Assembly: GCF_032062105.1 (NCBI RefSeq)
Contig: NW_026924048.1
Coordinates: 1 to 64,000, forward strand
Reading direction: 5' to 3'
From: Saccostrea cucullata
Lineage: Eukaryota
DNA: 64,000 nt
The position numbers and the translations under genes are program-made. Below, piece after piece: positions 20,549-48,860 of this stretch; position 1 is the first letter of the stretch, and each line of letters begins with the position of its first letter. The notes below the pieces were generated by a model. The model saw only the letters and a list, made by a program, of their open reading frames with translations. It searched no databases and was not told the origin of the DNA.

Positions 20549-20725
20549 GGTCGTTTAAAGCAATCGCTAATTAAACGCATTTAATTGATTTCCAAAAAAC
20601 ACAGGGGGGTAGGTCTTTTGACACTTTCCCCGGATTGCCGCGAGTATAAAAGAGGGGCGCACGTGGCGTTTTCCTCCTCTTGCTCGATAGCTTTCCCAGC
20701 GTTTCTGCACTTTTGATAATTGTTT
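20549..20725 (+). repeat. Ngaro repeat A2
   Basis: Copy of A1 abutting B1 (junction ATTAA|GGTCG); followed by CCCACCCACCACCCCC. Confidence 0.95.
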
Positions 20726-20940
20726 CCCACCCACCACCCCCACTTAATGAGAAATTAAATCTTAGTTGTTGATAGATTGCTACTTTAAACATGTTAAGAA
20801 TTTGAGATGCTGTTGTTTCTGCTGTTTATTTGTATTTTTCAAGTTACAATTAACTGTGGATGTTTTATGTTTATGTGCGCAAGATTGTGATCTACAGGAA
20901 ATGGACTGAGGAATAACGATATGTTGCTGTCGCAGCTTTA

Positions 20941-28615: not shown

Positions 28616-29495
28616 GCACTAAAACCAACAACACTGTATATCCTAAAAGTCGGATGTACTAAGTAGATACAAGATCATGGATGGAAATTTATATAAAGAA
28701 TGAAAATGTCCAATGACAGGAAAATTGTACAATGTTTGGGACGACCTGTCCCTTTCCCAAGGACAAAGGAAAAAAGTTAAGAAGTCATAAAAACAAAGGG
28801 AAAAAAAGAAGAGAAAACAAAAGCATAACTATTTACACTAAATATTTGCAATGTGAAATGTTGTGTTTGAAGTTTCTGATCAGACTCGCAGAAAAAGAAA
28901 TCCGGATCGCAAGAAAAATGCGCCCGTTCTATCGGGTGTACTCAGGCGAAGTCATTTAAGAAGTAAACAAAAATGTTAAAAATTCTCTGGGAAATGAACT
29001 TTTAGTTGGTGACAAGATCAAATCCTGTGAAGCCCGAAGGGCTTCTCAGTAGATTTGATAACGTACCAACTAAAAGTTCATTTCCTAGTGAACTTTGTAA
29101 CATTGTTGTTTATCACTTATATTTAGACGAATAAATTTCAAGTAAAACTGCATTTATTACACGAACGGGACGCCGTATTGCTATGTTGTGACGCGCAATG
29201 ACCTAGAAGTTATTAGTTCACTCGCTCATTTGAATGTTTACATTCATGTTTAGAAGTCTAGTTAAGGAAATATCTGTATACTTAAAGTGAAAGAACAATG
29301 ATCGCTGCTGTGAATAATCTTAATATATATTTTAAAAGTTCTGAAAATATTTGAATTCAAAAGTGGTGGTACATGTATCGGCAGTTTTAGTTTACATAAC
29401 CCCGAAGGAATTTCGGGTTAAAAAGGTAAGTGCTGTTAGGGGCCTTACGTGTTACTATTCAAAACTTTATTCACACCGAAAGAAGGTTTAAAATT

Positions 29496-30574
29496 TGTAA
29501 CAGGGGGTTGTGATGAAGAACAACACGTACTCCTCTGTCAGGGTTCAGGTCATATATTTATTCGACACAGTGAGCATAACAAATGTTAATGTTAACAGCC
29601 CTGAAATATAATAAAACAACAATATAATAACACATCAAATCAATCCTATTAATCATCTATACATGTAGCTCTCATAGTAACATATTCATATTGATATATT
29701 ATAGATGATACAGATATATGTACATTTACTCTCAATTAAGGGAGATAACTCTTATAGTCAATATATGGACATTACATATTTTCTCCCATATAAAGGCATA
29801 AAAAATAGTACTAATTAAAACAAATAATTCCTCACCATTCTGTGGGAAAAGGCTTCCACAATGATATGGTGGTAACCGCTTTAATTAACATGTATATGGA
29901 CTCTGTAATTTAATACAGTATACATTAAAATATATATTCCTTTAAAATAAAATCATCTTTTCACTTTGAACAAAGTTACCAAATATCTGGGTCATAAAAA
30001 TATATGGTGTAACTTGAATATAACAATTTACACTTATAATATAATACATTACTGATCTTTATAATCAATAATTCCAATCATAAAAATAACATCTTTCTCT
30101 CATGGTCATGACATTCAATTAATATGAAGTGAAATTGGGATCTTTAATAAATGCAGATCTATGGAATAGACATATTACTTGACAATTAGTAATAAGGAAA
30201 GTTAGTACTTACCAGAAAATGGAATTTGTCAGTCTCCAAAAGTCAGTCATGGAGTCCATAAAAACTCAGTCTTGGTCATTAACTCAACAAGACAAAGAAT
30301 GAATATTTTGGCGGTAAAACCAATGACCATAAGAATAAAACCAATGAAAATCAACTTGACAACCAAACTACCAATAAGAACCAATAACACTCCAAAACCT
30401 TTGAACTGCCCTAAGGTAACTAATTATCTATATACAGGTGTACAGGTAAAGGGCTAAGGATATAAAGGAGCAGATCAAGCTTTTTATACTTTTATCTATT
30501 CTGGTAGTTTAATTTATTTACATTAAATTTAAAACACTTATTTATTATATACGCATATTATACACACTACTACA
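29496..30574 (-). repeat. Gypsy 3' LTR (1079 bp)
   Basis: TGTAACAGG...CTACTACA; over 99% identical to the other two LTRs. Confidence 0.97.
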
Positions 30575-30584
30575 ACCTCCCCCT
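30575..30584 (-). other. Polypurine tract, left unit
   Basis: AGGGGGAGGT on the minus strand immediately before the LTR. Confidence 0.85.
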
Positions 30585-30677: not shown

Positions 30678-33600
30678 TTACTGAGATGATGACACAATAT
30701 TTAAAAGAGCTATCTGGCACAAATTAGAGTCTACACTCTGTAAAAGACCATCTTTCATCATCTCTTTCAAAAAGTTGGCTCTACGTAACCAATCTGGTTC
30801 TGCTTTACCTTGCGTCATCATCACGTAATCTTTCGTCCAATCTGGGACCTTTCTTTGCCTTGTCGACTGCCGTGGAGCAGGAACTGGGGTGTCTTGCAAG
30901 GGTTCATCTTCATCTATGGAAGGCTCATCATCTTGCTCAACCACTTCATCTTCTTCTACGATCTGAACTTCTTCAACTTGATCATCATCACCTTCAGGCT
31001 GATTGGCAGGCTCCTGCTGCTGAAGAGCGTCCTCTTCTGAATCAGGTGCTGAAGCTTCTCCGGCCGAAGACAGGTCGTCACCCTCTTGACTTGAGGTCTC
31101 TGGTGGTGAATTCTTGGACACTATAGGGTTACCTATAAATGAAAATTCACTCTCAGAATCTGAAATACAAAAAGAATCTTTTGTATTAATATCTTCAGGT
31201 TCATCTCTTTTATCTGCCTTCCTTCTTTGTCTAGGTTTGGGTACTGGAGGTGAGGATATAAACTTGGATCCTATTGGCAATAGTAGGTTACGATGTAGAA
31301 CTCTACAACGTCCTTCGCCATCCTCTCGTCTCACCTTGAAAACAGGAATGTTCTTGTTTGGTTGGGATAGGATTTCATAAGGCACATCTTCCCACTTGTC
31401 TGAGATTTTGTGTTTTCCGTCGTAGGCTACAATCTTCACGAGCACTCTATCCCCAACATTCAGTATAGCTGCTCTGGCCCTAATGTCATAATTGGACTTC
31501 TGTCTTTGCTGAGAGGACTTTATTGCTGTTTCCGCTTGCTTATACGCAACTTGCAATCTTTTCCTCATCTCAGCAATATACTTGGTGGTACACTTGTCAT
31601 CATCATAGGATCTAGACAGTCCAAAAATAACATCAACAGGCAGCTTCGGTTCTCTACCGAACATCAGGAAGAATGGTGTAAATCCTGTTGTGTCATTGAC
31701 GGTAGAGTTGTATGCATGTACCAGGCTATTGATGTGTCGCTTCCAATCTGCTTTCTGGGAATTCTCTAAAGTTCTTAACATGGACAACAAGGTTCTGTTA
31801 AATCTCTCTGTTATTCCATTTCCCATTGGATGGTATGGAGTGGTCCTGGACTTGGAAATGCCTAAAAGTAAACATAATTCTTTAATAATATTGCTACAAA
31901 AATTTGTACCTTGATCAGAGTGTAATTTCTCAGGAATTCCATAATGAATGATGAAATTGTTGAAAATGGCTTCTGCTGTCGTCCTAGCTGTTTGGTTCTT
32001 TGTTGGAACTGCAATGGAAAATTGAGTAAAATGATCTGTAATAACTAAAATATTCTGAATGCCTCCTTTTGATGGTTCCAAAGTAAGGTAGTCCATGCAT
32101 ACTAACTCTAACGGCTGAGATGTAGTGATGTTAACTAGTTCTGTCTTCTCAGCTGGCCTCTTACTCTTGGTGCATCTCTCACAATTCTCAATCCAAGTTG
32201 TGACATCCTTCTGCATTCTCGGCCAATAAAACCTTTGTCGTACCAATGATAAAGTCTTATCACGGCCTAGATGTCCCATCTTATTGTGGAGATACTTTAG
32301 TACTGTTGGAATAGATGAGGCTGGGATTATGTGCTGTTCAAGTGTGTTCCCCTCGTTCTTAACTTCTCGTATCAAAAATCCATCCTTTATCTTCAGTTTT
32401 GAGAAGTTCCTGTGAAAAATAAGGTCATTTTCAGTCTGGAGTAAGTTCTTTCTAGGTCGAACTCCTGTGAGAACTTGCTGCTTCCAATAAGAGATAGTAG
32501 TATCATCATCTTGGAGTGCAACAATATCAAAATGGTCTCCAGGTTCACTGACAGGTTGCATAAACTGGCATATCTCTTCATCTACACAAAGTGTCTCTGC
32601 ATAAGGTTGACCTATCTGGCATATGGCTTTGATGGATTCTGAAGAAATGGTCTCTGTTTGATTCAGTCTGGATAAGCTGTCTGCATCAATATTACTTTTA
32701 CCTGGTTTGTAAAGAATTTTGAAATTGTAACCTGCCAAAGAAGAAATCCAACGATGTCCTGTCGCGTCCAATTTCGCACTGCTTAATACGTAGGTAAGGG
32801 GATTGTTATCGGTGAAAACTGTGAATTCTTTTCCTTGGAGATAATCTGCAAACTTTTCAGTGACTGCCCATTTTAATGCCAAAAACTCGAGTTTATGTGT
32901 AGGGTAATTTTTCTCCGAGCGGCTTAATCCACGACTGGCATATGCAATAACTCTGTCCGACCCATTTTGCGTTTGGTACAATACTGCTCCCAATCCAGTT
33001 TGGCAGGCATCTGTGTGCAGCTTAAAAGGTATGCTGAAATCTGGATAAGCTAATATGGGTGGAGTTGTAAGTTTTTCTTTAAGGATGTCGAATGCCACTT
33101 GTTGCTCTTGATTCCATTTCCATTTTGGGTCTATCTTTTGCTTGCTGTTACTTCTAGGTTTCTTTCCTACAGCCATTACATCTATCAGTGGTCTAGCAAT
33201 TTTGGCAAAATCTTTAATGAATTTCCTGTAGTAGCCAGCAAAACCTAAAAACTGTCGAACCTGTTCTGCATTAATTGGTACTGGCCAGTTTTTTACCTTG
33301 GAAATTTTGTCTGGGTCTAGCTCAACCCCATCCTTGGAGACAATATGTCCCACATACTTAACCCTACTCATAAGAAAAGAACATTTTTTAGGAGAAAGTT
33401 TAAGTCCATAATCCCTAATTCGCTGAAAAACCTGTTGTAGTCGATCAAGATGTTGCCTAAAAGTTGAAGAAAATATAATTAGATCGTCTAAGTAAATAAA
33501 ACAAATTTTGAGGTGAAGGTCTCCTAAACATTCTTCTTGTAGCCGTTGGTAGGTGGCTGGGGCGTTCGCTAAACCAAAACTCATCTTGTTGAATTCGTAG

Positions 33601-35051
33601 AAACCTAGGGGTCCCACTGTGAATGCAGTTCTCTCTTTATGATGTTCCTCAATCTCGATCTGGTGGTAGCTGGACTTCATGTCAAGGACACTGAAGTAAG
33701 TATTACCGGATAGGGAATCCAAGATTTCTTCAATCCTCGGTAGTGCATAATTGTCCTTTATGGTCCTTGCATTAAGTTGTCTGTAGTCAACGCAGAGGCG
33801 TAGTGAGCCATCACTTTTGCGGACTAACACCACATTCGATGAAAAGGGAGAATGGGATGGTCTTATTATCCCTGCAGCCAACAGATCTTTAATATGGGAC
33901 CGCACTTCCTCTATCATGGCTGGTGGTACTCTACGATATTTCTGCTTAAATGGTGTCTCATCAGATAATTCAATGCGGTGCTTTACTTTATCCGTTGTCC
34001 CTATATCTGTATCACCAGTAGAAAAGATGTCTTGATAGGATTCTATTAAGTCTCTGCAAGCCTGTTTCTCTTCTTCAGTAATGTCGTCTGGTAAATGGAT
34101 CTTACTTAGTATCCTCTCCAACTCAGGTGATGATGCTGGTTCACTCTTGGAAAATTTACCAGTATCCTCTATGACTACAGGCTGGATCTCACATATGATG
34201 GCTTTAGGTGAAATGGAAATGGTTCTCGTAGTGATATTGCTGATGGTGACAGGCAACAGCTGATGTTCGTCATACATGTACTGGTGTAGTGTTGCCTCTA
34301 TATCAACATCATCTGGTATGCATGATCTTGAAGACTGGTGCATCATAACAGTAACTTGCTGATATGGAATCTTCTTATCAACATATCCTGTGATGGTGGT
34401 GTTACTGTTTGGTGGAATCACGATTCTTGTTGTTTCTGCACTTTTCACCAGTCCTAAGGCATATCCATTTTTCTGTAAGTCTCTTTCTCTAAGTACTATA
34501 CTACGGAAGGCTAAGTACCATGGTGTCTGGATAGCAACTTCCTGTAAAAATCTCGAACCATGTTCCTCTCTCGTGACATCAATAAGACTCTGTAAGATGT
34601 TTGTCCCTATGAGAACAGGTACATGGGAGTTGTAAGTACTATTGGGTACAATCAGAAAAAAGCAGTCATGTAATTGGTCTAATCCAGGGATGCCGAATGG
34701 TGTCAGGTTAACACTGACATATCCGAGGTAAGGCATGAGTTGTCCATCCGCACATTCTATTCTTATGGCTTCTTCTATTGGATGTAACTCCGCATCTCTA
34801 CTTAAATTCTGGTAATAAAAAGCTTCACTGATGGTCGAGACTGTAGCTCCTGTGTCAATAAGTGCGGTACATATTACATCATTGATGGACACTCTAATCT
34901 CATTTGATGATCCGATTATTGGAACTTTGGGACTCCTTGTTCGCTTGCCAACCCCTTGTCCCCAGACGCTGGCTTCTTGGAGTTTAAATGAGCCCTTCTG
35001 TGATCCATTCGAACTCGGCATCCAATGGCTATGTGACCCTTCTGTCCACAT
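30678..35051 (-). CDS. pol: Gypsy Pol polyprotein, left unit (entered by -1 frameshift near 34985)
   Basis: Protease ALIDTGA; RT LDMKSSYHQ and YLDD; RNase H TDAC, EFLA, TDNN; integrase HNKMGH..CERC with D,D(35)E core; acidic C-terminal tail. Confidence 0.97.
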   Translation of the reverse strand: MWTEGSHSHWMPSSNGSQKGSFKLQEASVWGQGVGKRTRSPKVPIIGSSNEIRVSINDVICTALIDTGATVSTISEAFYYQNLSRDAELHPIEEAIRIECADGQLMPYLGYVSVNLTPFGIPGLDQLHDCFFLIVPNSTYNSHVPVLIGTNILQSLIDVTREEHGSRFLQEVAIQTPWYLAFRSIVLRERDLQKNGYALGLVKSAETTRIVIPPNSNTTITGYVDKKIPYQQVTVMMHQSSRSCIPDDVDIEATLHQYMYDEHQLLPVTISNITTRTISISPKAIICEIQPVVIEDTGKFSKSEPASSPELERILSKIHLPDDITEEEKQACRDLIESYQDIFSTGDTDIGTTDKVKHRIELSDETPFKQKYRRVPPAMIEEVRSHIKDLLAAGIIRPSHSPFSSNVVLVRKSDGSLRLCVDYRQLNARTIKDNYALPRIEEILDSLSGNTYFSVLDMKSSYHQIEIEEHHKERTAFTVGPLGFYEFNKMSFGLANAPATYQRLQEECLGDLHLKICFIYLDDLIIFSSTFRQHLDRLQQVFQRIRDYGLKLSPKKCSFLMSRVKYVGHIVSKDGVELDPDKISKVKNWPVPINAEQVRQFLGFAGYYRKFIKDFAKIARPLIDVMAVGKKPRSNSKQKIDPKWKWNQEQQVAFDILKEKLTTPPILAYPDFSIPFKLHTDACQTGLGAVLYQTQNGSDRVIAYASRGLSRSEKNYPTHKLEFLALKWAVTEKFADYLQGKEFTVFTDNNPLTYVLSSAKLDATGHRWISSLAGYNFKILYKPGKSNIDADSLSRLNQTETISSESIKAICQIGQPYAETLCVDEEICQFMQPVSEPGDHFDIVALQDDDTTISYWKQQVLTGVRPRKNLLQTENDLIFHRNFSKLKIKDGFLIREVKNEGNTLEQHIIPASSIPTVLKYLHNKMGHLGRDKTLSLVRQRFYWPRMQKDVTTWIENCERCTKSKRPAEKTELVNITTSQPLELVCMDYLTLEPSKGGIQNILVITDHFTQFSIAVPTKNQTARTTAEAIFNNFIIHYGIPEKLHSDQGTNFCSNIIKELCLLLGISKSRTTPYHPMGNGITERFNRTLLSMLRTLENSQKADWKRHINSLVHAYNSTVNDTTGFTPFFLMFGREPKLPVDVIFGLSRSYDDDKCTTKYIAEMRKRLQVAYKQAETAIKSSQQRQKSNYDIRARAAILNVGDRVLVKIVAYDGKHKISDKWEDVPYEILSQPNKNIPVFKVRREDGEGRCRVLHRNLLLPIGSKFISSPPVPKPRQRRKADKRDEPEDINTKDSFCISDSESEFSFIGNPIVSKNSPPETSSQEGDDLSSAGEASAPDSEEDALQQQEPANQPEGDDDQVEEVQIVEEDEVVEQDDEPSIDEDEPLQDTPVPAPRQSTRQRKVPDWTKDYVMMTQGKAEPDWLRRANFLKEMMKDGLLQSVDSNLCQIALLNIVSSSQ

Positions 35052-36145
35052 TTATAACAGGTAGGGGCTTCATACTCGTACCTCGGTGTGTCTGACACAA
35101 CATCTGACTGAGGCATCCTAACTGACTGACTAGGAAATCCTCTATAACTTCCTCGTCTTCTTCCTCGTTGGAAGGACGGCCTTACTGGTCTGTACTGCTG
35201 AGGCATCTGTGGGTTGTAGCTATAACCGTAGTGTTGCTTCATTCCCCTAACCTCACTACTCAGTTGTTGAATCTGTGCTTCAAGAGATTCAAAGCTCTTT
35301 GTTGACGGATCCACAGGGACTGCTGACTTTACAGTTGGTAGCTTCTTTTTCTCACTGGGTGGCTGATGCTCCAATTCCACCTTCCTAACTGCAGCTCTTA
35401 AACTGTCAAATGTAAGGCACTTGTCATATAAATGACCACAAATGTCCTTCAATGTTGGGCGTAGTCCTTTAAAGAACATGGTACGCAGCATTTGTTGGGA
35501 TTCATGGTATCCAACTAATCCTTTCTGTTGTGCTTTACTGATTATATCCTCTAAGCGACAACTCCATCTAGCACACTCTTCGTCCTCTTTCTGATGGGCA
35601 CTACAAAATTCTGCTAAGATGTCCTCTTTCTCAGACACGGTTCCATATATGCTGTCGAGTTTGTTGATAATAGCCTCAATGGAAGCTCCTGGGCCAAGAT
35701 GCATAACGACTCGACTTGCCTCTCCTTTCAGAGAACGTCGTATGGCATGATGAATAGCTTCTGGCTTGCACGACTCTCTAAGCAGGCACTCAACCTCGTA
35801 TTTCCATACGTCATAGGATGTGTCAGTCTTGGTGTTTCCAGAGAAGAAGGAAATCTTTGGATAATGAAAGTTGACAACGGATTTCGATTCTGCTGTGGTA
35901 GGAGTAACATCATGATGCTCCATTTTCACTTCCGTTGGCTTAGTCATGGATTCCATCCACTGCAAGAAATCTTGTGGAGTGTCGGCTTTCGGCTTCATCT
36001 TCATTGATGCTAGCGCGTCTACAATGTTGTTCACTTCCGTCTGCGTAAAGGTTACTTCCTCTTGCTGTGTTGTTTCTGTTGTCTCCTTGGTGTTCGACAT
36101 GATGATGAATGTGATAGTAAACAGTAAACAATAAACTAAGTTCAT
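34916..36145 (-). CDS. gag: Gypsy Gag, PNMA-like capsid plus CCHC zinc knuckle, left unit (probable start ATG 36100)
   Basis: PKISFFSG...YDVWKYEV...IRRSLKGEA...KLDSIYG; CYKCGQKGHIAIGC. Confidence 0.95.
   Translation of the reverse strand: MNLVYCLLFTITFIIMSNTKETTETTQQEEVTFTQTEVNNIVDALASMKMKPKADTPQDFLQWMESMTKPTEVKMEHHDVTPTTAESKSVVNFHYPKISFFSGNTKTDTSYDVWKYEVECLLRESCKPEAIHHAIRRSLKGEASRVVMHLGPGASIEAIINKLDSIYGTVSEKEDILAEFCSAHQKEDEECARWSCRLEDIISKAQQKGLVGYHESQQMLRTMFFKGLRPTLKDICGHLYDKCLTFDSLRAAVRKVELEHQPPSEKKKLPTVKSAVPVDPSTKSFESLEAQIQQLSSEVRGMKQHYGYSYNPQMPQQYRPVRPSFQRGRRRGSYRGFPSQSVRMPQSDVVSDTPRYEYEAPTCYKCGQKGHIAIGCRVRMDHRRAHLNSKKPASGDKGLASEQGVPKFQ
34925..34988 (-). promoter_or_regulatory. -1 ribosomal frameshift signal, left unit
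   Basis: Heptamer T TTA AAC (34988-34982) in the gag frame leads into pol K-L-Q-E; downstream GCCAGC/GTTGGC stem whose loop GGGAC can pair with a later GTCCC. Confidence 0.85.
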
Positions 36146-37624
36146 AAATCAATGTGAAAATATTTCTACAATATGCAAAATTTCAGCAAATAATGAAAAT
36201 GGTAATTTTAGAAATTCACACCAGATAAAATTCTAAATAATTTCAAATATGCAAGGGAGGGTTGTTCTAAATGAACAAATGAAATATTGGGCTAATATAT
36301 TCGAAAATAACTTTCAATTCAGGAGGGTAGTTCACGTGTGGAACTTAAAAAATTTGGTATGCTATTTATAAACCTGAGAAACAAAAATAAATTTCTACTT
36401 CCGGTTACTTTACCTTACTTCCGGTCAAATGATTTGAGTATGCAAGTCACATAAGATTATAAATAAGAAAAGATTGATCAACACTAGGTTCTCAAATTTG
36501 CAAGTGCAAGTCTGGTTAAATTTCACTGAAAATAAGAAATATGCAAAGGGATTATGCCTAAAGAGTAAATGTATGCAATGTAATAAACCCAAACCTTACC
36601 TGGAAATCAATTACAAGTTTAAAGAAATAACAAACACCTAGAAAATAAACCAAATTTTAAAGTCAAACCCAAAACGTGTTTACACAGGAAGCTGCTTACT
36701 GAAAACAAATTTCGCGTAGGCCGAGCTCGATCGAAAATACGTAAACAAAAAAAAGAAACCGATCTCGATATAAATACGGGCGCAAAGGCGGCAAATTCAA
36801 AACACAAATTTATAAATACAGGGCAATGGGGAATATGGGATTTTAAAAGAGCTGTTTAACTATATTTTAGAACTAATTTAAATAACTATACACTACAAAC
36901 ACCAGGTGAATAATCCAACAACACAAAACACCACTGAGAATAAATCAAACTCTATAACCTTCACTCAACTTATTTACAAACTGACCTGCTATAAAATACC
37001 ACAGACTAAAACAACTATGTCTCGTCCGTAAACAGTCAAATGTCAAAAGGAATAGCAGCTAAATATTTAATAAGGTAATACCTGGGTAGGTTGAAGGGTA
37101 TAAGGGTATGTGCACTGTTAATTTACCACTTACCCATCCTGGCTCTCTTGCTTTCAGTCCAATAATAATTACTCAAATAAAAATAATGTGCACAGTATAT
37201 ACAAATATAACCCAAGCTAAGTAAGACGACAGACGGACAAACCAGTCATGACCAATAATCACTTATATACATATGCTAGCTAGCTACCTCAAAAATAATA
37301 AACATGCATGTATCTAAGAAAATCTTATCTAAAGAAAAACCTTATCAGTGTCTTTGGTTCCGGGTGCACCAGTCGAGTCGATGAAGCATGCATGCAGCTG
37401 AGAATCACTACACTGTCACTATCAGCTGATATCGTAAACACACAAATGTTCTGATCAGTCACGCGTGAAACTATGAAATCACATACAGTGTTCTGTGTTC
37501 ACTCTGAAGTGTCATGCACAAATCGCTGAATACTCCGGGTATCAGTCACAAATGACGTCTCCTGGGAATACCATCAGGGATGTACCACGCCCAGTCCTCT
37601 CCGTTCACTGCTGTGCCTCACTGT

Positions 37625-37642
37625 GTCCCTACATGGGCGCCA
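37625..37642 (-). other. Primer binding site, tRNA-Lys-like, left unit
   Basis: TGGCGCCCATGTAGGGAC, 3 nt from the LTR; 14/18 match to the tRNA-Lys3 PBS TGGCGCCCGAACAGGGAC. Confidence 0.85.
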
Positions 37643-37645: not shown

Positions 37646-38724
37646 TGTAACAGGGGGTTGTGATGAAGAACAACACGTACTCCTCTGTCAGGGTTCAGGT
37701 CATATATTTATTCGACACAGTGAGCATAACAAATGTTAATGTTAACAGCCCTGAAATATAATAAAACAACAATATAATAACACATCAAATCAATCCTATT
37801 AATCATCTATACATGTAGCTCTCATAGTAACATATTCATAATGATATATTATAGATGATACAGATATATGTACATTTACTCTCAATTAAGGGAGATAACT
37901 CTTATAGTCAATATATGGACATTACATATTTTCTCCCATATAAAGGCATAAAAAATAGTACTAATTAAAACAAATAATTCCTCACCATTCTGTGGGAAAA
38001 GGCTTCCACAATGATATGGTGGTAACCGCTTTAATTAACATGTATATGGACTCTGTAATTTAATACAGTATACATTAAAATATATATTCCTTTAAAATAA
38101 AATCATCTGTTCACTTTGAACAAAGTTACCAAATATCTGGGTCATAAAAATATATGGTGTAACTTGAATATAACAATTTACACTTATAATATAATACATT
38201 ACTGATCTTTATAATCAATAATTCCAATCATAAAAATAACATCTTTCTCTCATGGTCATGACATTCAATTAATATGAAGTGAAATTGGGATCTTTAATAA
38301 ATGCAAATCTATGGAATAGACATATTACTTGACAATTAGTAATAAGGAAAGTTAGTACTTACCAGAAAATGGAATTTGTCAGTCTCCAAAAGTCAGTCAT
38401 GGAGTCCATAAAAACTCAGTCTTGTTCATTAACTCAACAAGACAAAGAATGAATATTTTGGCGGTAAAACCAATGACCATAAGAATAAAACCAATGAAAA
38501 TCAACTTGACAACCAAACTACCAATAAGAACCAATAACACTCCAAAACCTTTGAACTGCCCTAAGGTAACTAATTATCTATATACAGGTGTACAGGTAAA
38601 GGGCTAAGGATATAAAGGAGCAGATCAAGCTTTTTATACTTTTATCTATTCTGGTAGTTTAATTTATTTACATTAAATTTAAAACACTTATTTATTATAT
38701 ACGCATATTATACACACTACTACA
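37646..38724 (-). repeat. Gypsy shared middle LTR
   Basis: Flanked by the PBS of one unit and the PPT of the other; no TSD. Confidence 0.97.
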
Positions 38725-38827: not shown

Positions 38828-41800
38828 TTACTGAGATGATGACACAATATTTAAAAGAGCTATCTGGCACAAATTAGAGTCTACACTCTGTAAAAGACCA
38901 TCTTTCATCATCTCTTTCAAAAAGTTGGCTCTACGTAACCAATCTGGTTCTGCTTTACCTTGCGTCATCATCACGTAATCTTTCGTCCAATCTGGGACCT
39001 TTCTTTGCCTTGTCGACTGCCGTGGAGCAGGAACTGGGGTGTCTTGCAAGGGTTCATCTTCATCTATGGAAGGCTCATCATCTTGCTCAACCACTTCATC
39101 TTCTTCTACGATCTGAACTTCTTCAACTTGATCATCATCACCTTCAGGCTGATTGGCAGGCTCCTGCTGCTGAAGAGCGTCCTCTTCTGAATCAGGTGCT
39201 GAAGCTTCTCCGGCCGAAGACAGGTCGTCACCCTCTTGACTGGAGGTCTCTGGTGGTGAATTCTTGGACACTATAGGGTTACCTATAAATGAAAATTCAC
39301 TCTCAGAATCTGAAATACAAAAAGAATCTTTTGTATTAATATCTTCAGGTTCATCTCTTTTATCTGCCTTCCTTCTTTGTCTAGGTTTGGGTACTGGAGG
39401 TGAGGATATAAACTTGGATCCTATTGGCAATAGTAGGTTACGATGTAGAACTCTACAACGTCCTTCGCCATCCTCTCGTCTCACCTTGAAAACAGGAATG
39501 TTCTTGTTTGGTTGGGATAGGATTTCATAAGGCACATCTTCCCACTTGTCTGAGATTTTGTGTTTTCCGTCGTAGGCTACAATCTTCACGAGCACTCTAT
39601 CCCCAACATTCAGTATAGCTGCTCTGGCCCTAATGTCATAATTGGACTTCTGTCTTTGCTGAGAGGACTTTATTGCTGTTTCCGCTTGCTTATACGCAAC
39701 TTGCAATCTTTTCCTCATCTCAGCAATATACTTGGTGGTACACTTGTCATCATCATAGGATCTAGACAGTCCAAAAATAACATCAACAGGCAGCTTCGGT
39801 TCTCTACCGAACATCAGGAAGAATGGTGTAAATCCTGTTGTGTCATTGACGGTAGAGTTGTATGCATGTACCAGGCTATTGATGTGTCGCTTCCAATCTG
39901 CTTTCTGGGAATTCTCTAAAGTTCTTAACATGGACAACAAGGTTCTGTTAAATCTCTCTGTTATTCCATTTCCCATTGGATGGTATGGAGTGGTCCTGGA
40001 CTTGGAAATGCCTAAAAGTAAACATAATTCTTTAATAATATTGCTACAAAAATTTGTACCTTGATCAGAGTGTAATTTCTCAGGAATTCCATAATGAATG
40101 ATGAAATTGTTGAAAATGGCTTCTGCTGTCGTCCTAGCTGTTTGGTTCTTTGTTGGAACTGCAATGGAAAATTTAGTAAAATGATCTGTAATAACTAAAA
40201 TATTCTGAATGCCTCCTTTTGATGGTTCCAAAGTAAGGTAGTCCATGCATACTAACTCTAACGGCTGAGATGTAGTGATGTTAACTAGTTCTGTCTTCTC
40301 AGCTGGCCTCTTACTCTTGGTGCATCTCTCACAATTCTCAATCCAAGTTGTGACATCCTTCTGCATTCTCGGCCAATAAAACCTTTGTCGTACCAATGAT
40401 AAAGTCTTATCACGGCCTAGATGTCCCATCTTATTGTGGAGATACTTTAGTACTGTTGGAATAGATGAGGCTGGGATTATGTGCTGTTCAAGTGTGTTCC
40501 CCTCGTTCTTAACTTCTCGTATCAAAAATCCATCCTTTATCTTCAGTTTTGAGAAGTTCCTGTGAAAAATAAGGTCATTTTCAGTCTGGAGTAAGTTCTT
40601 TCTAGGTCGAACTCCTGTGAGAACTTGCTGCTTCCAATAAGAGATAGTAGTATCATCATCTTGGAGTGCAACAATATCAAAATGGTCTCCAGGTTCACTG
40701 ACAGGTTGCATAAACTGGCATATCTCTTCATCTACACAAAGTGTCTCTGCATAAGGTTGACCTATCTGGCATATGGCTTTGATGGATTCTGAAGAAATGG
40801 TCTCTGTTTGATTCAGTCTGGATAAGCTGTCTGCATCAATATTACTTTTACCTGGTTTGTAAAGAATTTTGAAATTGTAACCTGCCAAAGAAGAAATCCA
40901 ACGATGTCCTGTCGCGTCCAATTTCGCACTGCTTAATACGTAGGTAAGGGGATTGTTATCGGTGAAAACTGTGAATTCTTTTCCTTGGAGATAATCTGCA
41001 AACTTTTCAGTGACTGCCCATTTTAATGCCAGAAACTCGAGTTTATGTGTAGGGTAATTTTTCTCCGAGCGGCTTAATCCACGACTGGCATATGCAATAA
41101 CTCTGTCCGACCCATTTTGCGTTTGGTACAATACTGCTCCCAATCCAGTTTGGCAGGCATCTGTGTGCAGCTTAAAAGGTATGCTGAAATCTGGATAAGC
41201 TAATATGGGTGGAGTTGTAAGTTTTTCTTTAAGGATGTCGAATGCCACTTGTTGCTCTTGATTCCATTTCCATTTTGGGTCTATCTTTTGCTTGCTGTTA
41301 CTTCTAGGTTTCTTTCCTACAGCCATTACATCTATCAGTGGTCTAGCAATTTTGGCAAAATCTTTAATGAATTTCCTGTAGTAGCCAGCAAAACCTAAAA
41401 ACTGTCGAACCTGTTCTGCATTAATTGGTACTGGCCAGTTTTTTACCTTGGAAATTTTGTCTGGGTCTAGCTCAACCCCATCCTTGGAGACAATATGTCC
41501 CACATACTTAACCCTACTCATAAGAAAAGAACATTTTTTAGGAGAAAGTTTAAGTCCATAATCCCTAATTCGCTGAAAAACCTGTTGTAGTCGATCAAGA
41601 TGTTGCCTAAAAGTTGAAGAAAATATAATTAGATCGTCTAAGTAAATAAAACAAATTTTGAGGTGAAGGTCTCCTAAACATTCTTCTTGTAGCCGTTGGT
41701 AGGTGGCTGGGGCGTTCGCTAAACCAAAACTCATCTTGTTGAATTCGTAGAAACCTAGGGGTCCCACTGTGAATGCAGTTCTCTCTTTATGATGTTCCTC

Positions 41801-43201
41801 AATCTCGATCTGGTGGTAGCCGGACTTCATGTCAAGGACACTGAAGTAAGTATTACCGGAGAGGGAATCCAAGATTTCTTCAATCCTCGGTAGTGCATAA
41901 TTGTCCTTTATGGTCCTTGCATTAAGTTGTCTGTAGTCAACGCAGAGGCGTAGTGAGCCATCACTTTTGCGGACTAACACCACATTCGATGAAAAGGGAG
42001 AATGGGATGGTCTTATTATCCCTGCAGCCAACAGATCTTTAATATGGGACCGCACTTCCTCTATCATGGCTGGTGGTACTCTACGATATTTCTGCTTAAA
42101 TGGTGTCTCATCGGATAATTCAATGCGGTGCTTTACTTTATCCGTTGTCCCTATATCTGTATCACCAGTAGAAAAGATGTCTTGATAGGATTCTATTAAG
42201 TCTCTGCAAGCCTGTTTCTCTTCTTCAGTAATGTCGTCTGGTAAATGGATCTTACTTAGTATCCTCTCCAACTCAGGTGATGATGCTGGTTCACTCTTGG
42301 AAAATTTACCAGTATCCTCTATGACTACAGGCTGGATCTCACATATGATGGCTTTAGGTGAAATGGAAATGGTTCTCGTAGTGATATTGCTGATGGTGAC
42401 AGGCAACAGCTGATGTTCGTCATACATGTACTGGTGTAGTGTTGCCTCTATATCAACATCATCTGGTATGCATGATCTTGAAGACTGGTGCATCATAACA
42501 GTAACTTGCTGATATGGAATCTTCTTATCAACATATCCTGTGATGGTGGTGTTACTGTTTGGTGGAATCACGATTCTTGTTGTTTCTGCACTTTTCACCA
42601 GTCCTAAGGCATATCCATTTTTCTGTAAGTCTCTTTCTCTAAGTACTATACTACGGAAGGCTAAGTACCATGGTGTCTGGATAGCGACTTCCTGTAAAAA
42701 TCTCGAACCATGTTCCTCTCTCGTGACATCAATAAGACTCTGTAAGATGTTTGTCCCTATGAGAACAGGTACATGGGAGTTGTAAGTACTATTGGGTACA
42801 ATCAGAAAAAAGCAGTCATGTAATTGGTCTAATCCAGGGATGCCGAATGGTGTCAGGTTAACACTGACATATCCGAGGTAAGGCATGAGTTGTCCATCCG
42901 CACATTCTATTCTTATGGCTTCTTCTATTGGATGTAACTCCGCATCTCTACTTAAATTCTGGTAATAAAAAGCTTCACTGATGGTCGAGACTGTAGCTCC
43001 TGTGTCAATAAGTGCGGTACATATTACATCATTGATGGACACTCTAATCTCATTTGATGATCCGATTATTGGAACTTTGGGACTCCTTGTTCGCTTGCCA
43101 ACCCCTTGTCCCCAGACGCTGGCTTCTTGGAGTTTAAATGAGCCCTTCTGTGATCCATTCGGACTCGGCATCCAATGGCTATGTGACCCTTCTGTCCACA
43201 T
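38828..43201 (-). CDS. pol: Gypsy Pol polyprotein, right unit
   Basis: As the left unit but with the more canonical LDMKSGYHQ and DHFTKF. Confidence 0.97.
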   Translation of the reverse strand: MWTEGSHSHWMPSPNGSQKGSFKLQEASVWGQGVGKRTRSPKVPIIGSSNEIRVSINDVICTALIDTGATVSTISEAFYYQNLSRDAELHPIEEAIRIECADGQLMPYLGYVSVNLTPFGIPGLDQLHDCFFLIVPNSTYNSHVPVLIGTNILQSLIDVTREEHGSRFLQEVAIQTPWYLAFRSIVLRERDLQKNGYALGLVKSAETTRIVIPPNSNTTITGYVDKKIPYQQVTVMMHQSSRSCIPDDVDIEATLHQYMYDEHQLLPVTISNITTRTISISPKAIICEIQPVVIEDTGKFSKSEPASSPELERILSKIHLPDDITEEEKQACRDLIESYQDIFSTGDTDIGTTDKVKHRIELSDETPFKQKYRRVPPAMIEEVRSHIKDLLAAGIIRPSHSPFSSNVVLVRKSDGSLRLCVDYRQLNARTIKDNYALPRIEEILDSLSGNTYFSVLDMKSGYHQIEIEEHHKERTAFTVGPLGFYEFNKMSFGLANAPATYQRLQEECLGDLHLKICFIYLDDLIIFSSTFRQHLDRLQQVFQRIRDYGLKLSPKKCSFLMSRVKYVGHIVSKDGVELDPDKISKVKNWPVPINAEQVRQFLGFAGYYRKFIKDFAKIARPLIDVMAVGKKPRSNSKQKIDPKWKWNQEQQVAFDILKEKLTTPPILAYPDFSIPFKLHTDACQTGLGAVLYQTQNGSDRVIAYASRGLSRSEKNYPTHKLEFLALKWAVTEKFADYLQGKEFTVFTDNNPLTYVLSSAKLDATGHRWISSLAGYNFKILYKPGKSNIDADSLSRLNQTETISSESIKAICQIGQPYAETLCVDEEICQFMQPVSEPGDHFDIVALQDDDTTISYWKQQVLTGVRPRKNLLQTENDLIFHRNFSKLKIKDGFLIREVKNEGNTLEQHIIPASSIPTVLKYLHNKMGHLGRDKTLSLVRQRFYWPRMQKDVTTWIENCERCTKSKRPAEKTELVNITTSQPLELVCMDYLTLEPSKGGIQNILVITDHFTKFSIAVPTKNQTARTTAEAIFNNFIIHYGIPEKLHSDQGTNFCSNIIKELCLLLGISKSRTTPYHPMGNGITERFNRTLLSMLRTLENSQKADWKRHINSLVHAYNSTVNDTTGFTPFFLMFGREPKLPVDVIFGLSRSYDDDKCTTKYIAEMRKRLQVAYKQAETAIKSSQQRQKSNYDIRARAAILNVGDRVLVKIVAYDGKHKISDKWEDVPYEILSQPNKNIPVFKVRREDGEGRCRVLHRNLLLPIGSKFISSPPVPKPRQRRKADKRDEPEDINTKDSFCISDSESEFSFIGNPIVSKNSPPETSSQEGDDLSSAGEASAPDSEEDALQQQEPANQPEGDDDQVEEVQIVEEDEVVEQDDEPSIDEDEPLQDTPVPAPRQSTRQRKVPDWTKDYVMMTQGKAEPDWLRRANFLKEMMKDGLLQSVDSNLCQIALLNIVSSSQ

Positions 43202-44295
43202 TTATAACAGGTAGGGGCTTCATACTCGTACCTCGGTGTATCTGACACAACATCTGACTGAGGCATCCTAACTGACTGACTAGGAAATCCCCTATAATTT
43301 CCTCGTCTTCTTCCTCGTTGGAAGGACGGCCTTACTGGTCTGTACTGCTGAGGCATCTGTGGGTTGTAGCTATAACCGTAGTGTTGCTTCATTCCCCTAA
43401 CCTCACTACTCAGTTGTTGAATCTGTGCTTCAAGAGATTCAAAGCTCTTTGTTGACGGATCCACAGGGACTGCTGACTTTACAGTTGGTAGCTTCTTTTT
43501 CTCACTGGGTGGCTGATGCTCCAATTCCACCTTCCTAACTGCAGCTCTTAAACTGTCAAATGTAAGGCACTTGTCATATAAATGACCACAAATGTCCTTC
43601 AATGTTGGGCGTAGTCCTTTAAAGAACATGGTACGCAGCATTTGTTGGGATTCATGGTATCCAACTAATCCTTTCTGTTGTGCTTTACTGATTATATCCT
43701 CTAAGCGACAACTCCATCTAGCACACTCTTCGTCCTCTTTCTGATGGGCACTACAAAATTCTGCTAAGATGTCCTCTTTCTCAGACACGGTTCCATATAT
43801 GCTGTCGAGTTTGTTGATAATAGCCTCAATGGAAGCTCCTGGGCCAAGATGCATAACGACTCGACTTGCCTCTCCTTTCAGAGAACGTCGTATGGCATGA
43901 TGAATAGCTTCTGGCTTGCACGACTCTCTAAGCAGGCACTCAACCTCGTATTTCCATACGTCATAGGATGTGTCAGTCTTGGTGTTTCCAGAGAAGAAGG
44001 AAATCTTTGGATAATGAAAGTTGTCCACTGATTTTGATTCTGTTGTGATAGGACTAGCATAATGGTGCTCCATTTTCACTTCCGTTGGCTTAGTCATGGA
44101 TTCCATCCACTGCAAGAAATCTTGTGGAGTGTCGGCTTTCGGCTTCATCTTCATTGATGCTAGCGCGTCTACAATGTTGTTCACTTCCGTCTGCGTAAAG
44201 GTTACTTCCTCTTGCTGTGTTGTTTCTGTTGTCTCCTTGGTGTTCGACATGATGATGAATGTGATAGTAAACAGTAAACAATAAACTAAGTTCAT
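43066..44295 (-). CDS. gag: Gypsy Gag, PNMA-like plus CCHC, right unit (probable start ATG 44250)
   Basis: As the left unit except HYASPITTESKSVDNF and one S/N change. Confidence 0.95.
   Translation of the reverse strand: MNLVYCLLFTITFIIMSNTKETTETTQQEEVTFTQTEVNNIVDALASMKMKPKADTPQDFLQWMESMTKPTEVKMEHHYASPITTESKSVDNFHYPKISFFSGNTKTDTSYDVWKYEVECLLRESCKPEAIHHAIRRSLKGEASRVVMHLGPGASIEAIINKLDSIYGTVSEKEDILAEFCSAHQKEDEECARWSCRLEDIISKAQQKGLVGYHESQQMLRTMFFKGLRPTLKDICGHLYDKCLTFDSLRAAVRKVELEHQPPSEKKKLPTVKSAVPVDPSTKSFESLEAQIQQLSSEVRGMKQHYGYSYNPQMPQQYRPVRPSFQRGRRRGNYRGFPSQSVRMPQSDVVSDTPRYEYEAPTCYKCGQKGHIAIGCRVRMDHRRAHLNSKKPASGDKGLASEQGVPKFQ
43075..43138 (-). promoter_or_regulatory. -1 ribosomal frameshift signal, right unit
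   Basis: TTTAAAC at 43138-43132 with the same downstream structure. Confidence 0.85.
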
Positions 44296-45774
44296 AAATC
44301 AATGTGAAAATATTTCTACAATGTGCAAAATTTCAGCAAATAATGAAAATGGTAAATTTAGAAATTCACACCAGATAAAATTCTAAATAATTTCAAATAT
44401 GCAAGGGAGGGTTGTTCTAAATGAACAAATGAAATATTGGGCTAATATATTCGAAAATAACTTTCAATTCAGGAGGGTAGTTCACGTGTGGAACTTAAAA
44501 AATTTGGTATGCTATTTATAAACCTGAGAAACAAAAATAAATTTCTACTTCCGGTTACTTTACCTTACTTCCGGTCAAATGATTTGAGTATGCAAGTCAC
44601 ATAAGATTATAAATAAGAAAAGATTGATCAACACTAGGTTCTCAAATTTGCAAGTGCAAGTCTGGTTAAATTTCACTGAAAATAAGAAATATGCAAAGGG
44701 ATTATGCCTAAAGAGTAAATGTATGCAATGTAATAAACCCAAACCTTACCTGGAAATCAATTACAAGTTTAAAGAAATAACAAACACCTAGAAAATAAAC
44801 CAAATTTTAAAGTCAAACCCAAAACGTGTTTACACAGGAAGCTGCTTACTGAAAACAAATTTCGCGTAGGCCGAGCTCGATCGAAAATACGTAAACAAAA
44901 AAAAGAAACCGATCTCGATATAAATACGGGCGCAAAGGCGGCAAATTCAAAACACAAATTTATAAATACAGGGCAATGGGGAATATGGGATTTTAAAAGA
45001 GCTGTTTAACTATATTTTAGAACTAATTTAAATAACTATACACTACAAACACCAGGTGAATAATCCAACAACACAAAACACCACTGAGAATAAATCAAAC
45101 TCTATAACCTTCACTCAACTTATTTACAAACTGACCTGCTATAAAATACCACAGACTAAAACAACTATGTCTCGTCCGTAAACAGTCAAATGTCAAAAGG
45201 AATAGCAGTTAAATATTTAATAAGGTAATACCTGGGTAGGTTGAAGGGTATAAGGGTATGTGCACTGTTAATTTACCACTTACCCATCCTGGCTCTCTTG
45301 CTTTCAGTCCAATAATAATTACTCAAATAAAAATAATGTGCACAGTATATACAAATATAACCCAAGCTAAGTAAGACGACAGACGGACAAACCAGTCATG
45401 ACCAATAATCACTTATATACATATGCTAGCTAGCTACCTCAAAAATAATAAACATGCATGTATCTAAGAAAATCTTATCTAAAGAAAAACCTTATCAGTG
45501 TCTTTGGTTCCGGGTGCACCAGTCGAGTCGATGAAGCATGCATGCAGCTGAGAATCACTACACTGTCACTATCAGCTGATATCGTAAACACACAAATGTT
45601 CTGATCAGTCACGCGTGAAACTATGAAATCACATACAGTGTTCTGTGTTCACTCTGAAGTGTCATGCACAAATCGCTGAATACTCCGGGTATCAGTCACA
45701 AATGACGTCTCCTGGGAATACCATCAGGGATGTACCACGCCCAGTCCTCTCCGTTCACTGCTGTGCCTCACTGT

Positions 45775-45792
45775 GTCCCTACATGGGCGCCA
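45775..45792 (-). other. Primer binding site, tRNA-Lys-like, right unit
   Basis: TGGCGCCCATGTAGGGAC next to the 5' LTR. Confidence 0.85.
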
Positions 45793-45795: not shown

Positions 45796-46874
45796 TGTAA
45801 CAGGGGGTTGTGATGAAGAACAACACGTACTCCTCTGTCAGGGTTCAGGTCATATATTTATTCGACACAGTGAGCGTAACAAATGTTAATGTTAACAGCC
45901 ATGAAATATAATAAAACAACAATATAATAACACATCAAATCAATCCTATTAATCATCTATACATGTAGCTCTCATAGTAACATATTCATAATGATATATT
46001 ATAGATGATACAGATATATGTACATTTACTCTCAATTAAGGGAGATAACTCTTATAGTCAATATATGGACATTACATATTTTCTCCCATATAAAGGCATA
46101 AAAAATAGTACTAATTAAAACAAATAATTCCTCACCATTCTGTGGGAAAAGGCTTCCACAATGATATGGTGGTAACCGCTTTAATTAACATGTATATGGA
46201 CTCTGTAATTTAATACAGTATACATTAAAATATATATTCTTTTAAAATAAAATCATCTGTTCACTTTGAACAAAGTTACCAAATATCTGGGTCATAAAAA
46301 TATATGGTGTAACTTGAATATAACAATTTACACTTATAATATAATACATTACTGATCTTTATAATCAATAATTCCAATCATAAAAATAACATCTTTCTCT
46401 CATGGTCATGACATTCAATTAATATGAAGTGAAATTGGGATCTTTAATAAATGCAAATCTATGGAATAGACATATTACTTGACAATTAGTAATAAGGAAA
46501 GTTAGTACTTACCAGAAAATGGAATTTGTCAGTCTCCAAAAGTCAGTCATGGAGTCCATAAAAACTCAGTCTTGGTCATTAACTCAACAAGACAAAGAAT
46601 GAATATTTTGGCGGTAAAACCAATGACCATAAGAATAAAACCAATGAAAATCAACTTGACAACCAAACTACCAATAAGAACCAATAACACTCCAAAACCT
46701 TTGAACTGCCCTAAGGTAACTAATTATCTATATACAGGTGTACAGGTAAAGGGCTAAGGATATAAAGGAGCAGATCAAGCTTTTTATACTTTTATCTATT
46801 CTGGTAGTTTAATTTATTTACATTAAATTTAAAACATTTATTTATTATATACGCATATTATACACACTACTACA
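45796..46874 (-). repeat. Gypsy 5' LTR
   Basis: Third LTR copy; followed on the plus strand by the AATT TSD. Confidence 0.97.
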
Positions 46875-47119
46875 AATTTATTGTACATCTCGTAAATGAA
46901 AAATCCATATTGTGAACATTTTATCCTTTTCATCGTTATTAACTAAGAAATATTCCAAAGCAAGTTGCACTGTGACAGAAATATGTATACAAAATATCAC
47001 CTCGCTCTGTGATTCGGTCGCGCTATGACCTCTGACCCCCAAATGAAATTAACGCAGAATTAAACACATTTTCACTTCAATAGGTTCACCTAAGAAATAT
47101 ATTTGCAAATGTAAATTAT

Positions 47120-48860
47120 ATATAAATGTACGTGAACATTTTTTTCTGATCGATAACCCAAATAAGATTGTAATTTTATTGAGACTAGTAAAGCCTTGAT
47201 GAACCCCATCATCGATTTTTTTTTTTCACTTTTCAATGCCTGTAACAAACATCAAGCCAAACAAAATCAATTTCTTGTTGTAAATTTATCTCTCAATGTT
47301 TTTTTTAAAAATAATTAATATAAAAATTCCAATTAATTCAAATGGTTAGTACACAGCTTTTATTAAGGGGTTGTAATCTGAAATGCAATTGTGTAATGAT
47401 TAGAAGAAAAAAAATAGATAAAACTTTTTTTTTAAAGAAAAAGACGCAATTGGTTAGGATCGATAGACGTATATTATTTACTTAATATACTTTTAAAACG
47501 GTGTTCATTAAACACAAATTATTATTTCTATCAAAAAAGGACCAATATAGGTGATTATAGCTGTGTGTTAGGCAATTTGGCTACGGTAATTACAGTAACA
47601 GTATAATCGAGCACACAGCCACAGGCGATAACGGGTACTTTGATAATTCACAGATGTCATTAATAGCTCTATGGGAGTATGATTATTTTGAAATATATAA
47701 AACGTTTGGCTAAAATTATTTAAAATGTTTGTTTTTTTTTCATTTAAGGTAGATTCTATGTCAGTAAAGTCTTTGTCACAAAATTCTTAAACTTTTCCAT
47801 TTGATAAATTAGCACGTGCTTATCAATCAATCAAAAGCTAATGGCAGGTTTACTTCTTATTAAATGGAGTGTCGCCTGTGAAACTTGGAATTGTTATTAT
47901 ATACTGCAACTAGTCATTTTCGGTCATTTTAGGAATACTTATTAAGAGAATGTAAAAAAATCACAAAAATATTTCTTCAAACAGTTTTTAGACTTAATTA
48001 AATGAACAACATTAAGTAATGTTACCCAAGAAAAAGTCTTTCCTTATTTATTTGACATAAAAGATGCCCAAGTAGAAGTCTACATTTCGTCCTAAGATAC
48101 ACATGTATTGTTAATATTCTAATATATTGCTTTCACCTCTATGTTGTTGAATAACAACCAAAGAGATACTTATAAATTGTTAAACTAGGAGACCCTTATG
48201 AAAAATATAGGACAAACAGGAGCCAAATTAGCCGACCGTGTTCGCATACATGAGCAACAGATAAAGGACCCGACCATACGAAATACGCCATGTAGTGAGC
48301 GATTCGGATACTGTGGCAAAGGGAATCTTAAGTTTATATATTTTCTTTTTACAAAGTAAAAGAGAAAAAAAAAACAGTTTCCTAAAAATCTGTTTAAACC
48401 AAAACTAAACTGCTAAAAAAAATTATGCATGTATCACATTATTTCATTATGTACATTTTACATATTTAGAATGTCTCAATTACAGTACATAAATAATAGG
48501 TGATAAACTTCTATCAGATGAACTGTAAATCTCTATCTCTGAGCCTTATTCAGTTGTGATTATATAACGTCACAATGCATATTTTGTTAAATGTCTAAAT
48601 AACGCCCACATAACGTCACGAATGACGACATTCTGTAACTTATTATTAAGAAATTAGATATCATTATTCCCTAATTATAAGGATACTTTTATAACTTATA
48701 TTTACGTATGGGATTGATTTATTACAAGTAGTACGGTACTTGTGACGTCATATTTTATCAATGTGTTTAACTCATTCAGTTTTGAAAAAAAATCTTTTAT
48801 GGATAAAAAACTTAAGTAGTAAAATATTTAAGTTTTTAATCCATAAAAGATTTTTTTGCA
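47120..48860 (+). repeat. Duplicated segment, copy 1 (continues 28527-28955 across the insertion); paralogue at ~55127-57130
   Basis: Colinear, diverged match, e.g. TAATTTTATTGAGACTAGTAAAGCC and TAGGCAATTTGGCTACGGTAATTACAGTAACA in both copies. Confidence 0.9.
48201..48330 (+). pseudogene. Penelope-like GIY-YIG endonuclease remnant
   Basis: NIGQTGAKLADRVRIHEQQIKDPTIRNTPCSERFGYCGKGN (YIG-x-T...R..H pattern). Confidence 0.75.

What the first reader, a model, noticed from the sequence alone, without database searches (positions are those of the whole stretch)
35874..35915. 42-bp hyperdivergent patch in gag between otherwise ~99.8% identical units
35874-35915 versus 44024-44065 differ at 10 of 42 positions (4 synonymous, 6 replacement; HDVTPTTAESKSVVNF versus HYASPITTESKSVDNF) with no indel, while the remaining ~7 kb of internal sequence shows only about 14 scattered changes. 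The patch lies in the linker just before the PNMA-like capsid domain. Inference: a short RT template switch or gene-conversion tract from a diverged subfamily, possibly a swappable variable segment under host pressure (piRNA target or restriction-factor interface).
Basis: partly seen in the sequence, partly recalled or inferred. Interest (0 to 1): 0.7.

Follow-up and report, generated by a model that had tools for sequence, protein, structure and literature searches.

The report
Recombination patch in tandem mollusc retrotransposon
Two back-to-back copies of a shellfish jumping gene differ sharply over 42 bases because they carry two old variants that are both common in the family, one likely copied in by ordinary recombination, in a stretch of the protein that is predicted to be floppy; nothing found here marks it as a special immune-evasion cassette.

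Summary
In detail: 10 substitutions in 42 bp (4 silent, 6 replacement) and 14 more in the other 7 kb, between two units of a three-LTR tandem Ty3/Gypsy element with one 4-bp target duplication. Both patch haplotypes are old family variants. Of 15 other genomic copies that cover the patch, 5 are A-type, 6 B-type and 4 recombine inside it, and both types occur in public runs. So recombination from a sister lineage is supported. A hyperdivergent, swappable cassette is not. Silent divergence in the patch (0.36) equals that of other deep blocks in protease, RNase H and capsid (0.30-0.41). It is one of six such linked clusters in a family with at least 155 inferred crossovers. It is broken internally, pN/pS is below 1, and it lies in a low-confidence, indel-rich linker. 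The 42 bp is a minimum; the tract could be about 300 bp. Which unit received it is unresolved. Template switching during reverse transcription is the likeliest route. A sister-family tandem shows the same patchiness. The scan's notes held no earlier report of this. Ordinary, known process.

The parts
29492..29495 (.). left copy of 4-bp target-site duplication (AATT)
29496..30574 (-). LTR1 (3' LTR of unit A), 1079 bp, TG...CA ends
30576..30584 (-). polypurine tract of unit A
   Evidence: read from the sequence
30678..35051 (-). pol ORF of unit A (protease, RT, RNase H, integrase; 1457 codons stop to stop), overlapping gag in the -1 frame
34916..36148 (-). gag ORF of unit A (first Met at 36100; PNMA-type capsid, CCHC knuckle)
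35874..35915 (-). patch, A-type haplotype, in the linker before the capsid domain
35629..36054 (.). outer bounds within which the exchanged tract may lie, depending on donor and polarity (unit A coordinates)
37625..37642 (-). primer-binding-site-like sequence of unit A; matching tRNA not identified
   Evidence: read from the sequence
37646..38724 (-). LTR2, shared by both units
38828..43201 (-). pol ORF of unit B
43066..44298 (-). gag ORF of unit B
44024..44065 (-). patch, B-type haplotype, matching the copy on contig C5765 at all 10 sites
45775..45792 (-). primer-binding-site-like sequence of unit B
   Evidence: read from the sequence
45796..46874 (-). LTR3 (5' LTR of unit B)
46875..46878 (.). 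right copy of 4-bp target-site duplication (AATT)

Best explanation
The two units of a tandem Ty3/Gypsy retrotransposon carry two old haplotypes of the Gag linker that both segregate in the family, and one unit likely picked up the other haplotype through a short double template switch while reverse transcriptase copied two co-packaged RNAs of different lineages. SHOWN: the tandem structure, both haplotypes in other copies, family-wide mosaicism, crossovers inside the patch, and silent divergence equal to other deep blocks. INFERRED: (1) the route is template switching, so the difference arose in a cDNA before or as the tandem formed; (2) the tandem likely formed at about insertion time from two near-clonal cDNAs, or from a cDNA recombining into an LTR; (3) the patch looks twice as divergent as other blocks (8 of 42 against about 10%) because replacements are tolerated in a predicted disordered linker; (4) the true tract is 42 to about 300 bp, its ends hidden because donor and recipient are identical on the flanks. 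Polarity is open, about 55:45 for unit B as recipient.
For:: of 15 other copies covering the patch, 5 are A-type, 6 B-type and 4 switch between 35876 and 35879; unit B has no substitution against C5765 over 35629-35932 (304 bp, gaps in C5765 ignored), including the rare 35898 state; a contig of run X3 matches unit A over 35772-36089 with 2 other letters; a contig of X5 carries the B type on the same flanks; 486 informative sites in 16 sequences; four-gamete failures rise from 13% (1-20 bp apart) to about 40% beyond 200 bp; minimum 155 crossovers; pS 0.36 in the patch against 0.30-0.44 in a protease block (12 of 12 comparisons), 0.34 in an RNase H block (3 of 12) and 0.41 in a capsid block (1 of 12); six linked clusters, the densest (9 sites in 51 bp) in RNase H; the linker is unconserved and indel-rich in 18 homologues, pLDDT under 50 for model residues 54-77 (patch = 62-76); the three LTRs share no difference pairwise against the third in a left/right pattern (3, 1 and 4 own changes), so they were alike when the tandem formed; the sister-family tandem on C6657 also differs in blocks (10 in one 42-bp window, a 1071-bp gap without substitution, longer than in 5000 of 5000 shuffles). 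PMC5668417 (passages read): 27 of 32 new Onsen copies were recombinants made in reverse transcription.
Against: Nothing here separates template switching from post-insertion gene conversion. No raw reads of the assembled individual were available, so the phase of the patch in each unit is unverified. The exact A-type donor is absent from the assembly: all 5 A-type copies differ from unit A at 35867 and 35893. Recurrent mutation inflates the crossover count. The replacement share of the patch is about three times that of other deep blocks (4N/4S against 19N/64S), though not significant (Fisher p 0.11). LTRs differ more than the internal regions (8 in 3237 against 11 in 14,048 lineage-bases, p 0.016), which is unexplained; 2 of the 8 are states also seen in other copies.
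Confidence: 0.58

Rival explanations
1. After insertion, ectopic gene conversion from another chromosomal copy (for example the C5765 lineage into unit B) overwrote 42 to about 110-300 bp of one unit.
For: An exact donor for unit B exists in the same genome, sharing the rare 35898 state with no other of 15 copies. Four of the other 14 unit differences are also states found in other copies, against about 1.2 expected (p 0.027), which fits further small tracts.
Against: Those data fit template switching equally. The family is mosaic at a density that suggests routine recombination in the particle. The sister tandem has many blocks, which is easier to get from two recombinant cDNAs than from many conversions.
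Confidence: 0.24
2. The pairing is an assembly product: two alleles or paralogues joined through the LTR, or a local polishing swap with reads from other copies.
For: The assembly is fragmented (23,869 contigs) and holds apparent haplotig pairs (C15300 and C2513 share a flank). The middle LTR has the fewest own changes, as a mixed consensus would.
Against: Neither unit carries the commonest local haplotype: unit A has a private site and a minority type, unit B a state seen in 1 of 15 copies. Both haplotypes are real elsewhere. One target duplication flanks the whole array, both units have open ORFs, and two more tandems occur in the sister family.
Confidence: 0.1
3. The pre-capsid linker is a surface-exposed variable segment kept dimorphic and exchanged under host or self-restriction pressure (restriction factor, or piRNA target).
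For: Top 0.7% of windows for amino-acid diversity; highest pN of the 12 regions tested (0.070); both types persist in several studies. In mouse PNMA2 the residues before the capsid domain form a disordered outer spike (bioRxiv 10.1101/2023.02.09.527862, passages read), and the patch maps to the end of that region.
Against: pN/pS 0.33-0.67, never above 1, in a window chosen for being divergent. Other linkers are as variable (pol 1278: 0.216, pol 301: 0.174, gag 273: 0.155 against 0.157). The block is split internally in 4 of 15 copies, and a further mixed haplotype appears in runs X11 and X17. A 42-bp change could not free a 9-kb element from piRNAs that match the rest (inference).
Confidence: 0.07
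4. A local burst of new mutations (error-prone RT or an editing enzyme) in one unit.
For: The changes are tightly clustered.
Against: 9 of the 10 sites have both states in other copies; the changes are of mixed types.
Confidence: 0.01

Closest known systems
[quoted passage not shown]
   Same: Copies are mosaics of family members, with junctions inside coding sequence; old lineages contribute pieces to young copies.
   Different: Onsen is a plant element observed directly in a burst; here the event is inferred from genomic copies of a mollusc Ty3/Gypsy, and conversion is not excluded.
Tandem LTR-retrotransposons with shared LTRs (rice TLI1/TLI2; PMC11899658, passages read; it cites Ty5 cDNA recombination, a paper I could not open)
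   Same: Two internal regions, three LTRs, one target duplication; proposed routes are repair between LTRs or integrase-independent cDNA recombination.
   Different: Animal host; the units differ by a discrete block that can be traced to sister lineages.
Ty1 / Ty1' gag exchange and copy-number control in yeast (PMC7055915, abstract and outline read)
   Same: gag sequence moves between subfamilies by recombination.
   Different: There a large part of gag moved and a self-encoded restriction phenotype was measured; here 14 linker codons, with no functional data and no sign of selection.
PNMA2-type Ty3/Gypsy capsid (PDB 8uyo, 8rb3; Pfam PF14893)
   Same: Profile match from just after the patch (E 7e-7); N-terminal part outside the ordered shell.
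   Different: PNMA2 is a domesticated mammalian gene with a 156-residue spike; this Gag has about 77 residues before the capsid and keeps a zinc knuckle.
Mollusc Ty3/Gypsy elements with PNMA-type Gag (named hits in Saccostrea, Pinctada, Haliotis, Pecten, Mizuhopecten)
   Same: Gag homologues at 29-74% identity, 112 hits.
   Different: No named family match was found; the clade within Gypsy was not tested.

Membership tests
Ty3/Gypsy LTR retrotransposon | LTRs with TG...CA ends, PBS and PPT | tested here: met
   the priming tRNA was not identified
Ty3/Gypsy LTR retrotransposon | pol order protease-RT-RNase H-integrase | tested here: met
Ty3/Gypsy LTR retrotransposon | target-site duplication | tested here: met
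   4-bp AATT; 4-bp A/T-rich duplications also readable at C18990, C5568, C6005, C4064 and C2970
Ty3/Gypsy LTR retrotransposon | placement in a named Gypsy clade by RT tree | not tested
   no reference RT set was fetched
env-bearing (errantivirus-like) element | env ORF between pol and the 3' LTR | tested here: not met
   pol ends about 100 bp from the LTR; no further ORF of 150 aa or more
Tandem LTR-RT with shared LTR | LTR-internal-LTR-internal-LTR with one target duplication | tested here: met
Tandem LTR-RT with shared LTR | support by long reads | not testable with these tools
   the 8 runs laid were contigs only
Recombination or conversion tract | clustered differences with both states in other lineages | tested here: met
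   9 of 10 sites; clustering
Recombination or conversion tract | single identifiable donor and polarity | tested here: inconclusive
   C5765-type fits unit B; an X3-type lineage fits unit A
Selected variable cassette | dN/dS above 1 | tested here: not met
   0.33-0.67; few sites, low power
Selected variable cassette | moves as a unit with fixed borders | tested here: not met
   internal crossovers in 4 of 15 copies (two may be haplotigs) and mixed haplotypes in public runs
Selected variable cassette | more variable than the rest of the element | tested here: inconclusive
   top 2.1% (DNA) and 0.7% (protein), but matched by other linkers and blocks
Selected variable cassette | allele-specific piRNA targeting or host-factor binding | not testable with these tools
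   no small-RNA reads among the 24 runs listed

The most novel reading that the evidence does not exclude
The last stretch of the Gag N-terminal spike, just outside the capsid shell, is an exposed loop held as a balanced, recombination-shuffled polymorphism in a mollusc retrotransposon, much like a viral variable loop; and tandem arrays in this clade are built from two different recombinant cDNAs, placing both variants at one locus.
Probability: 0.07. Interest if true: 0.6.

Novelty: new member of a known kind. Interest (0 to 1): 0.2.

Why it matters
As found, it is a clean example of a known process: LTR retrotransposon families reshuffle lineages in short blocks. Two practical points follow. 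Trees and ages built on whole elements of this family are unreliable, because the nearest relative changes every few hundred bases. And tandems whose units differ in blocks (this one and C6657) offer a way to test how shared-LTR tandems form in animals. If the selected-loop reading held, it would point to a host or self-restriction factor against retrotransposon capsids in molluscs.

Tried and rejected
Local hypermutation: rejected, states are shared. Base-calling error: rejected, both types occur in other contigs and runs. Fixing the left breakpoint to 35868-35873 from the 5 genomic A-type copies: dropped after runs X3 and X13 showed the A-type patch on unit A's own left flank. A second tract at 35012-35148: not resolved; no copy matches either unit cleanly there. 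A short search for further donors gave 18 matches, all on contigs already seen; counts are lower bounds. C9706 and C1086 lack the patch region; C16024, C19793 and C6122 do not align across it; these were left out of the haplotype counts. Diversity used unit A plus 14 copies (unit B, C4484 and C16024 left out); pN/pS and amino-acid diversity also left out C12981. No tRNA gene in the window. The Ty5 tandem paper was not held. Earlier scan notes: nothing near, nothing by words, and the 8 shown of 33 genome-wide notes concern other elements. Six literature searches listed no paper on this family or on intra-family recombination in a mollusc LTR element; this covers open-access text only, and I saw listings for most hits. 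RNA-library contigs hold the region, but contigs do not show transcription, so I draw nothing from that. No supplements were read.

Full report
Observation. The window holds a 9.2-kb direct repeat with an 8150-bp period. It resolves into a minus-strand LTR retrotransposon tandem: LTR1 29496-30574, unit A, shared LTR2 37646-38724, unit B, LTR3 45796-46874, with AATT on both outer sides. Each unit has an open gag (PNMA-type capsid, CCHC knuckle) and an overlapping pol in the order protease, RT, RNase H, integrase, with no env-sized ORF. The units differ at 24 of 7066 internal positions, 10 of them in 35874-35915; 4 are silent and 6 change a residue. Random placement never gave more than 6 in 42 bp in 200,000 trials. 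Named Gag homologues are from molluscs.

The family. A search of the own genome with 501 bp around the patch gave 22 matches: the two units and 20 on 18 other contigs. Fifteen of those contigs cover the patch. Five carry the unit A type, six the unit B type, and four switch between the types between 35876 and 35879; two of the four share a flank and may be haplotigs. One A-type copy (C3313) has the B state at 35911. Eight of the ten sites are thus an old dimorphism. The unit A state at 35893 is in none of the 15 copies and was not seen in the 8 runs laid; the unit B state at 35898 is shared only with C5765. Of 24 public runs listed I laid 8, all contigs, one from each of the 8 holding studies by the listing: the A type appears in X3, X9 and X13, the B type in X5, X14 and X17, both in X1, and a further mixed haplotype in X11 and X17.

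How long is the tract, and which way? Unit B has no substitution against C5765 from 35629 to 35932, if that copy's small deletion and 0.5-kb insertion are ignored. Unit A matches a contig of X3 from 35772 to 36089 with two other letters, and a contig of X5 carries the B type on the same flanks. Both haplotypes therefore ride on identical flanks, and the 42 bp is only the visible minimum of a tract of up to about 300 bp. Either polarity needs one older crossover plus one double crossover. I lean slightly to unit B as recipient because its exact donor type is in this assembly, while all five genomic A-type copies differ from unit A at 35867.

Is the patch special? Modestly variable, yes: nucleotide diversity 0.101 against 0.047 overall, top 2.1% of windows and ninth among non-overlapping peaks; amino-acid diversity in the top 0.7% of 1778 windows, behind two pol linkers and level with the post-capsid linker. 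Exceptional, no. Between typical haplotypes pS is 0.36 and pN 0.12; other deep blocks have the same pS (0.30-0.44 in protease, 0.34 in RNase H, 0.41 in capsid) but pN of 0.02-0.08. So the two haplotypes are as old as the family's other deep lineages, and the excess is replacements. That excess is not significant (Fisher p 0.11-0.20), and pN/pS stays under 1 (0.33 between typical haplotypes, 0.52 family-wide, against 0.08 in capsid, 0.06 in RT and 0.35 in the pol tail). The region is unconserved and full of gaps across 18 homologues and has pLDDT under 50 in a model whose capsid helices mostly score 80-93 (overall pTM 0.30, so only local confidence is used). Six clusters of five or more tightly linked sites within 60 bp exist along the element; the densest is in RNase H.

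Mechanism. The family is a fine mosaic: four-gamete failures reach about 40% beyond 200 bp, the minimum crossover count is 155 over 486 sites in 16 sequences, and the nearest relative of either unit changes every few hundred bases (recurrent mutation will inflate the count). Template switching between co-packaged RNAs yields such mosaics; in Onsen only 5 of 32 new copies had a single parent (PMC5668417, passages read). The three LTRs have 3, 1 and 4 own changes and no left/right mosaic, so the tandem formed when they were still alike. That fits formation from two near-clonal cDNAs or cDNA recombination into an LTR, routes mentioned for shared-LTR tandems (PMC11899658, passages read). Two tandems in a sister family about 75% identical (C6657, C6122) were found; in C6657 the units differ in dense blocks separated by long identical runs. 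I therefore put template switching at 0.58, later gene conversion at 0.24, an assembly product at 0.10 and a selected cassette at 0.07. The data cannot separate the first two.

Results against my reading. Four of the 14 other unit differences are also family states (p 0.027), which fits either route but could not be resolved into tracts. LTRs differ more than the internal regions (p 0.016), unexplained. The patch has the highest pN of the regions tested, and by analogy with mouse PNMA2, whose residues before the capsid domain form a disordered outer spike (bioRxiv 10.1101/2023.02.09.527862, passages read; alignment), it may be exposed. A precedent for functional gag exchange exists in yeast Ty1 (PMC7055915, abstract and outline read). 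These keep the selected-loop reading alive at low odds.

Verdict. Real, explained, and ordinary: a short inter-lineage recombination footprint in a relaxed Gag linker of a mosaic mollusc Ty3/Gypsy family. Interest 0.2; new member of a known kind.

Noticed in passing
G000:C6657:1-16415 (L041, L042) and G000:C6122:6558-22839 (L043, L040, L044): Two more tandems in a sister family about 75% identical in RT; the units of C6657 (98.2%) differ in blocks, those of C6122 are 94.5% alike. Tandem formation may be frequent in this clade.
   Followed up: partly
window 15395-21483: Degenerate element with split direct repeats (15395-15572/20549-20725, 20110-20297/20941-21128, 20298-20548/21235-21483) and sub-threshold Pfam hits to a CCCH finger, RT, integrase SAM-like domain and GDSL hydrolase; resembles a Ngaro/DIRS-type tyrosine-recombinase retrotransposon (label recalled, not tested).
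   Followed up: partly
window 34600-34800 (both units): A block in the protease region where both units differ from all 12 compared copies at pS 0.30-0.44: a piece from a deep lineage with no donor in the assembly.
   Followed up: partly
L036 about 6120-6623 (C5765) and L037 about 2792-3668 (C10400): Two family copies carry insertions in gag, about 0.5 kb and 0.9 kb, each with short duplicated flanks and matching ends, likely small DNA transposons; the second sits at the edge of the patch.
   Followed up: no
C15300 and C2513 (L032, L034): Same flank and near-identical sequence: likely one insertion assembled twice as haplotigs.
   Followed up: no
window 47118-48664 and 55536-57039: A second 1.5-kb repeat pair, 86% identical, not examined.
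   Followed up: no
family copies C18990, C5568, C4064, C6005, C5765, C6994, C2970: LTR pairs differ by 0.3-1.5%, so the family was active recently and over a span; target duplications are 4 bp and A/T-rich.
   Followed up: partly
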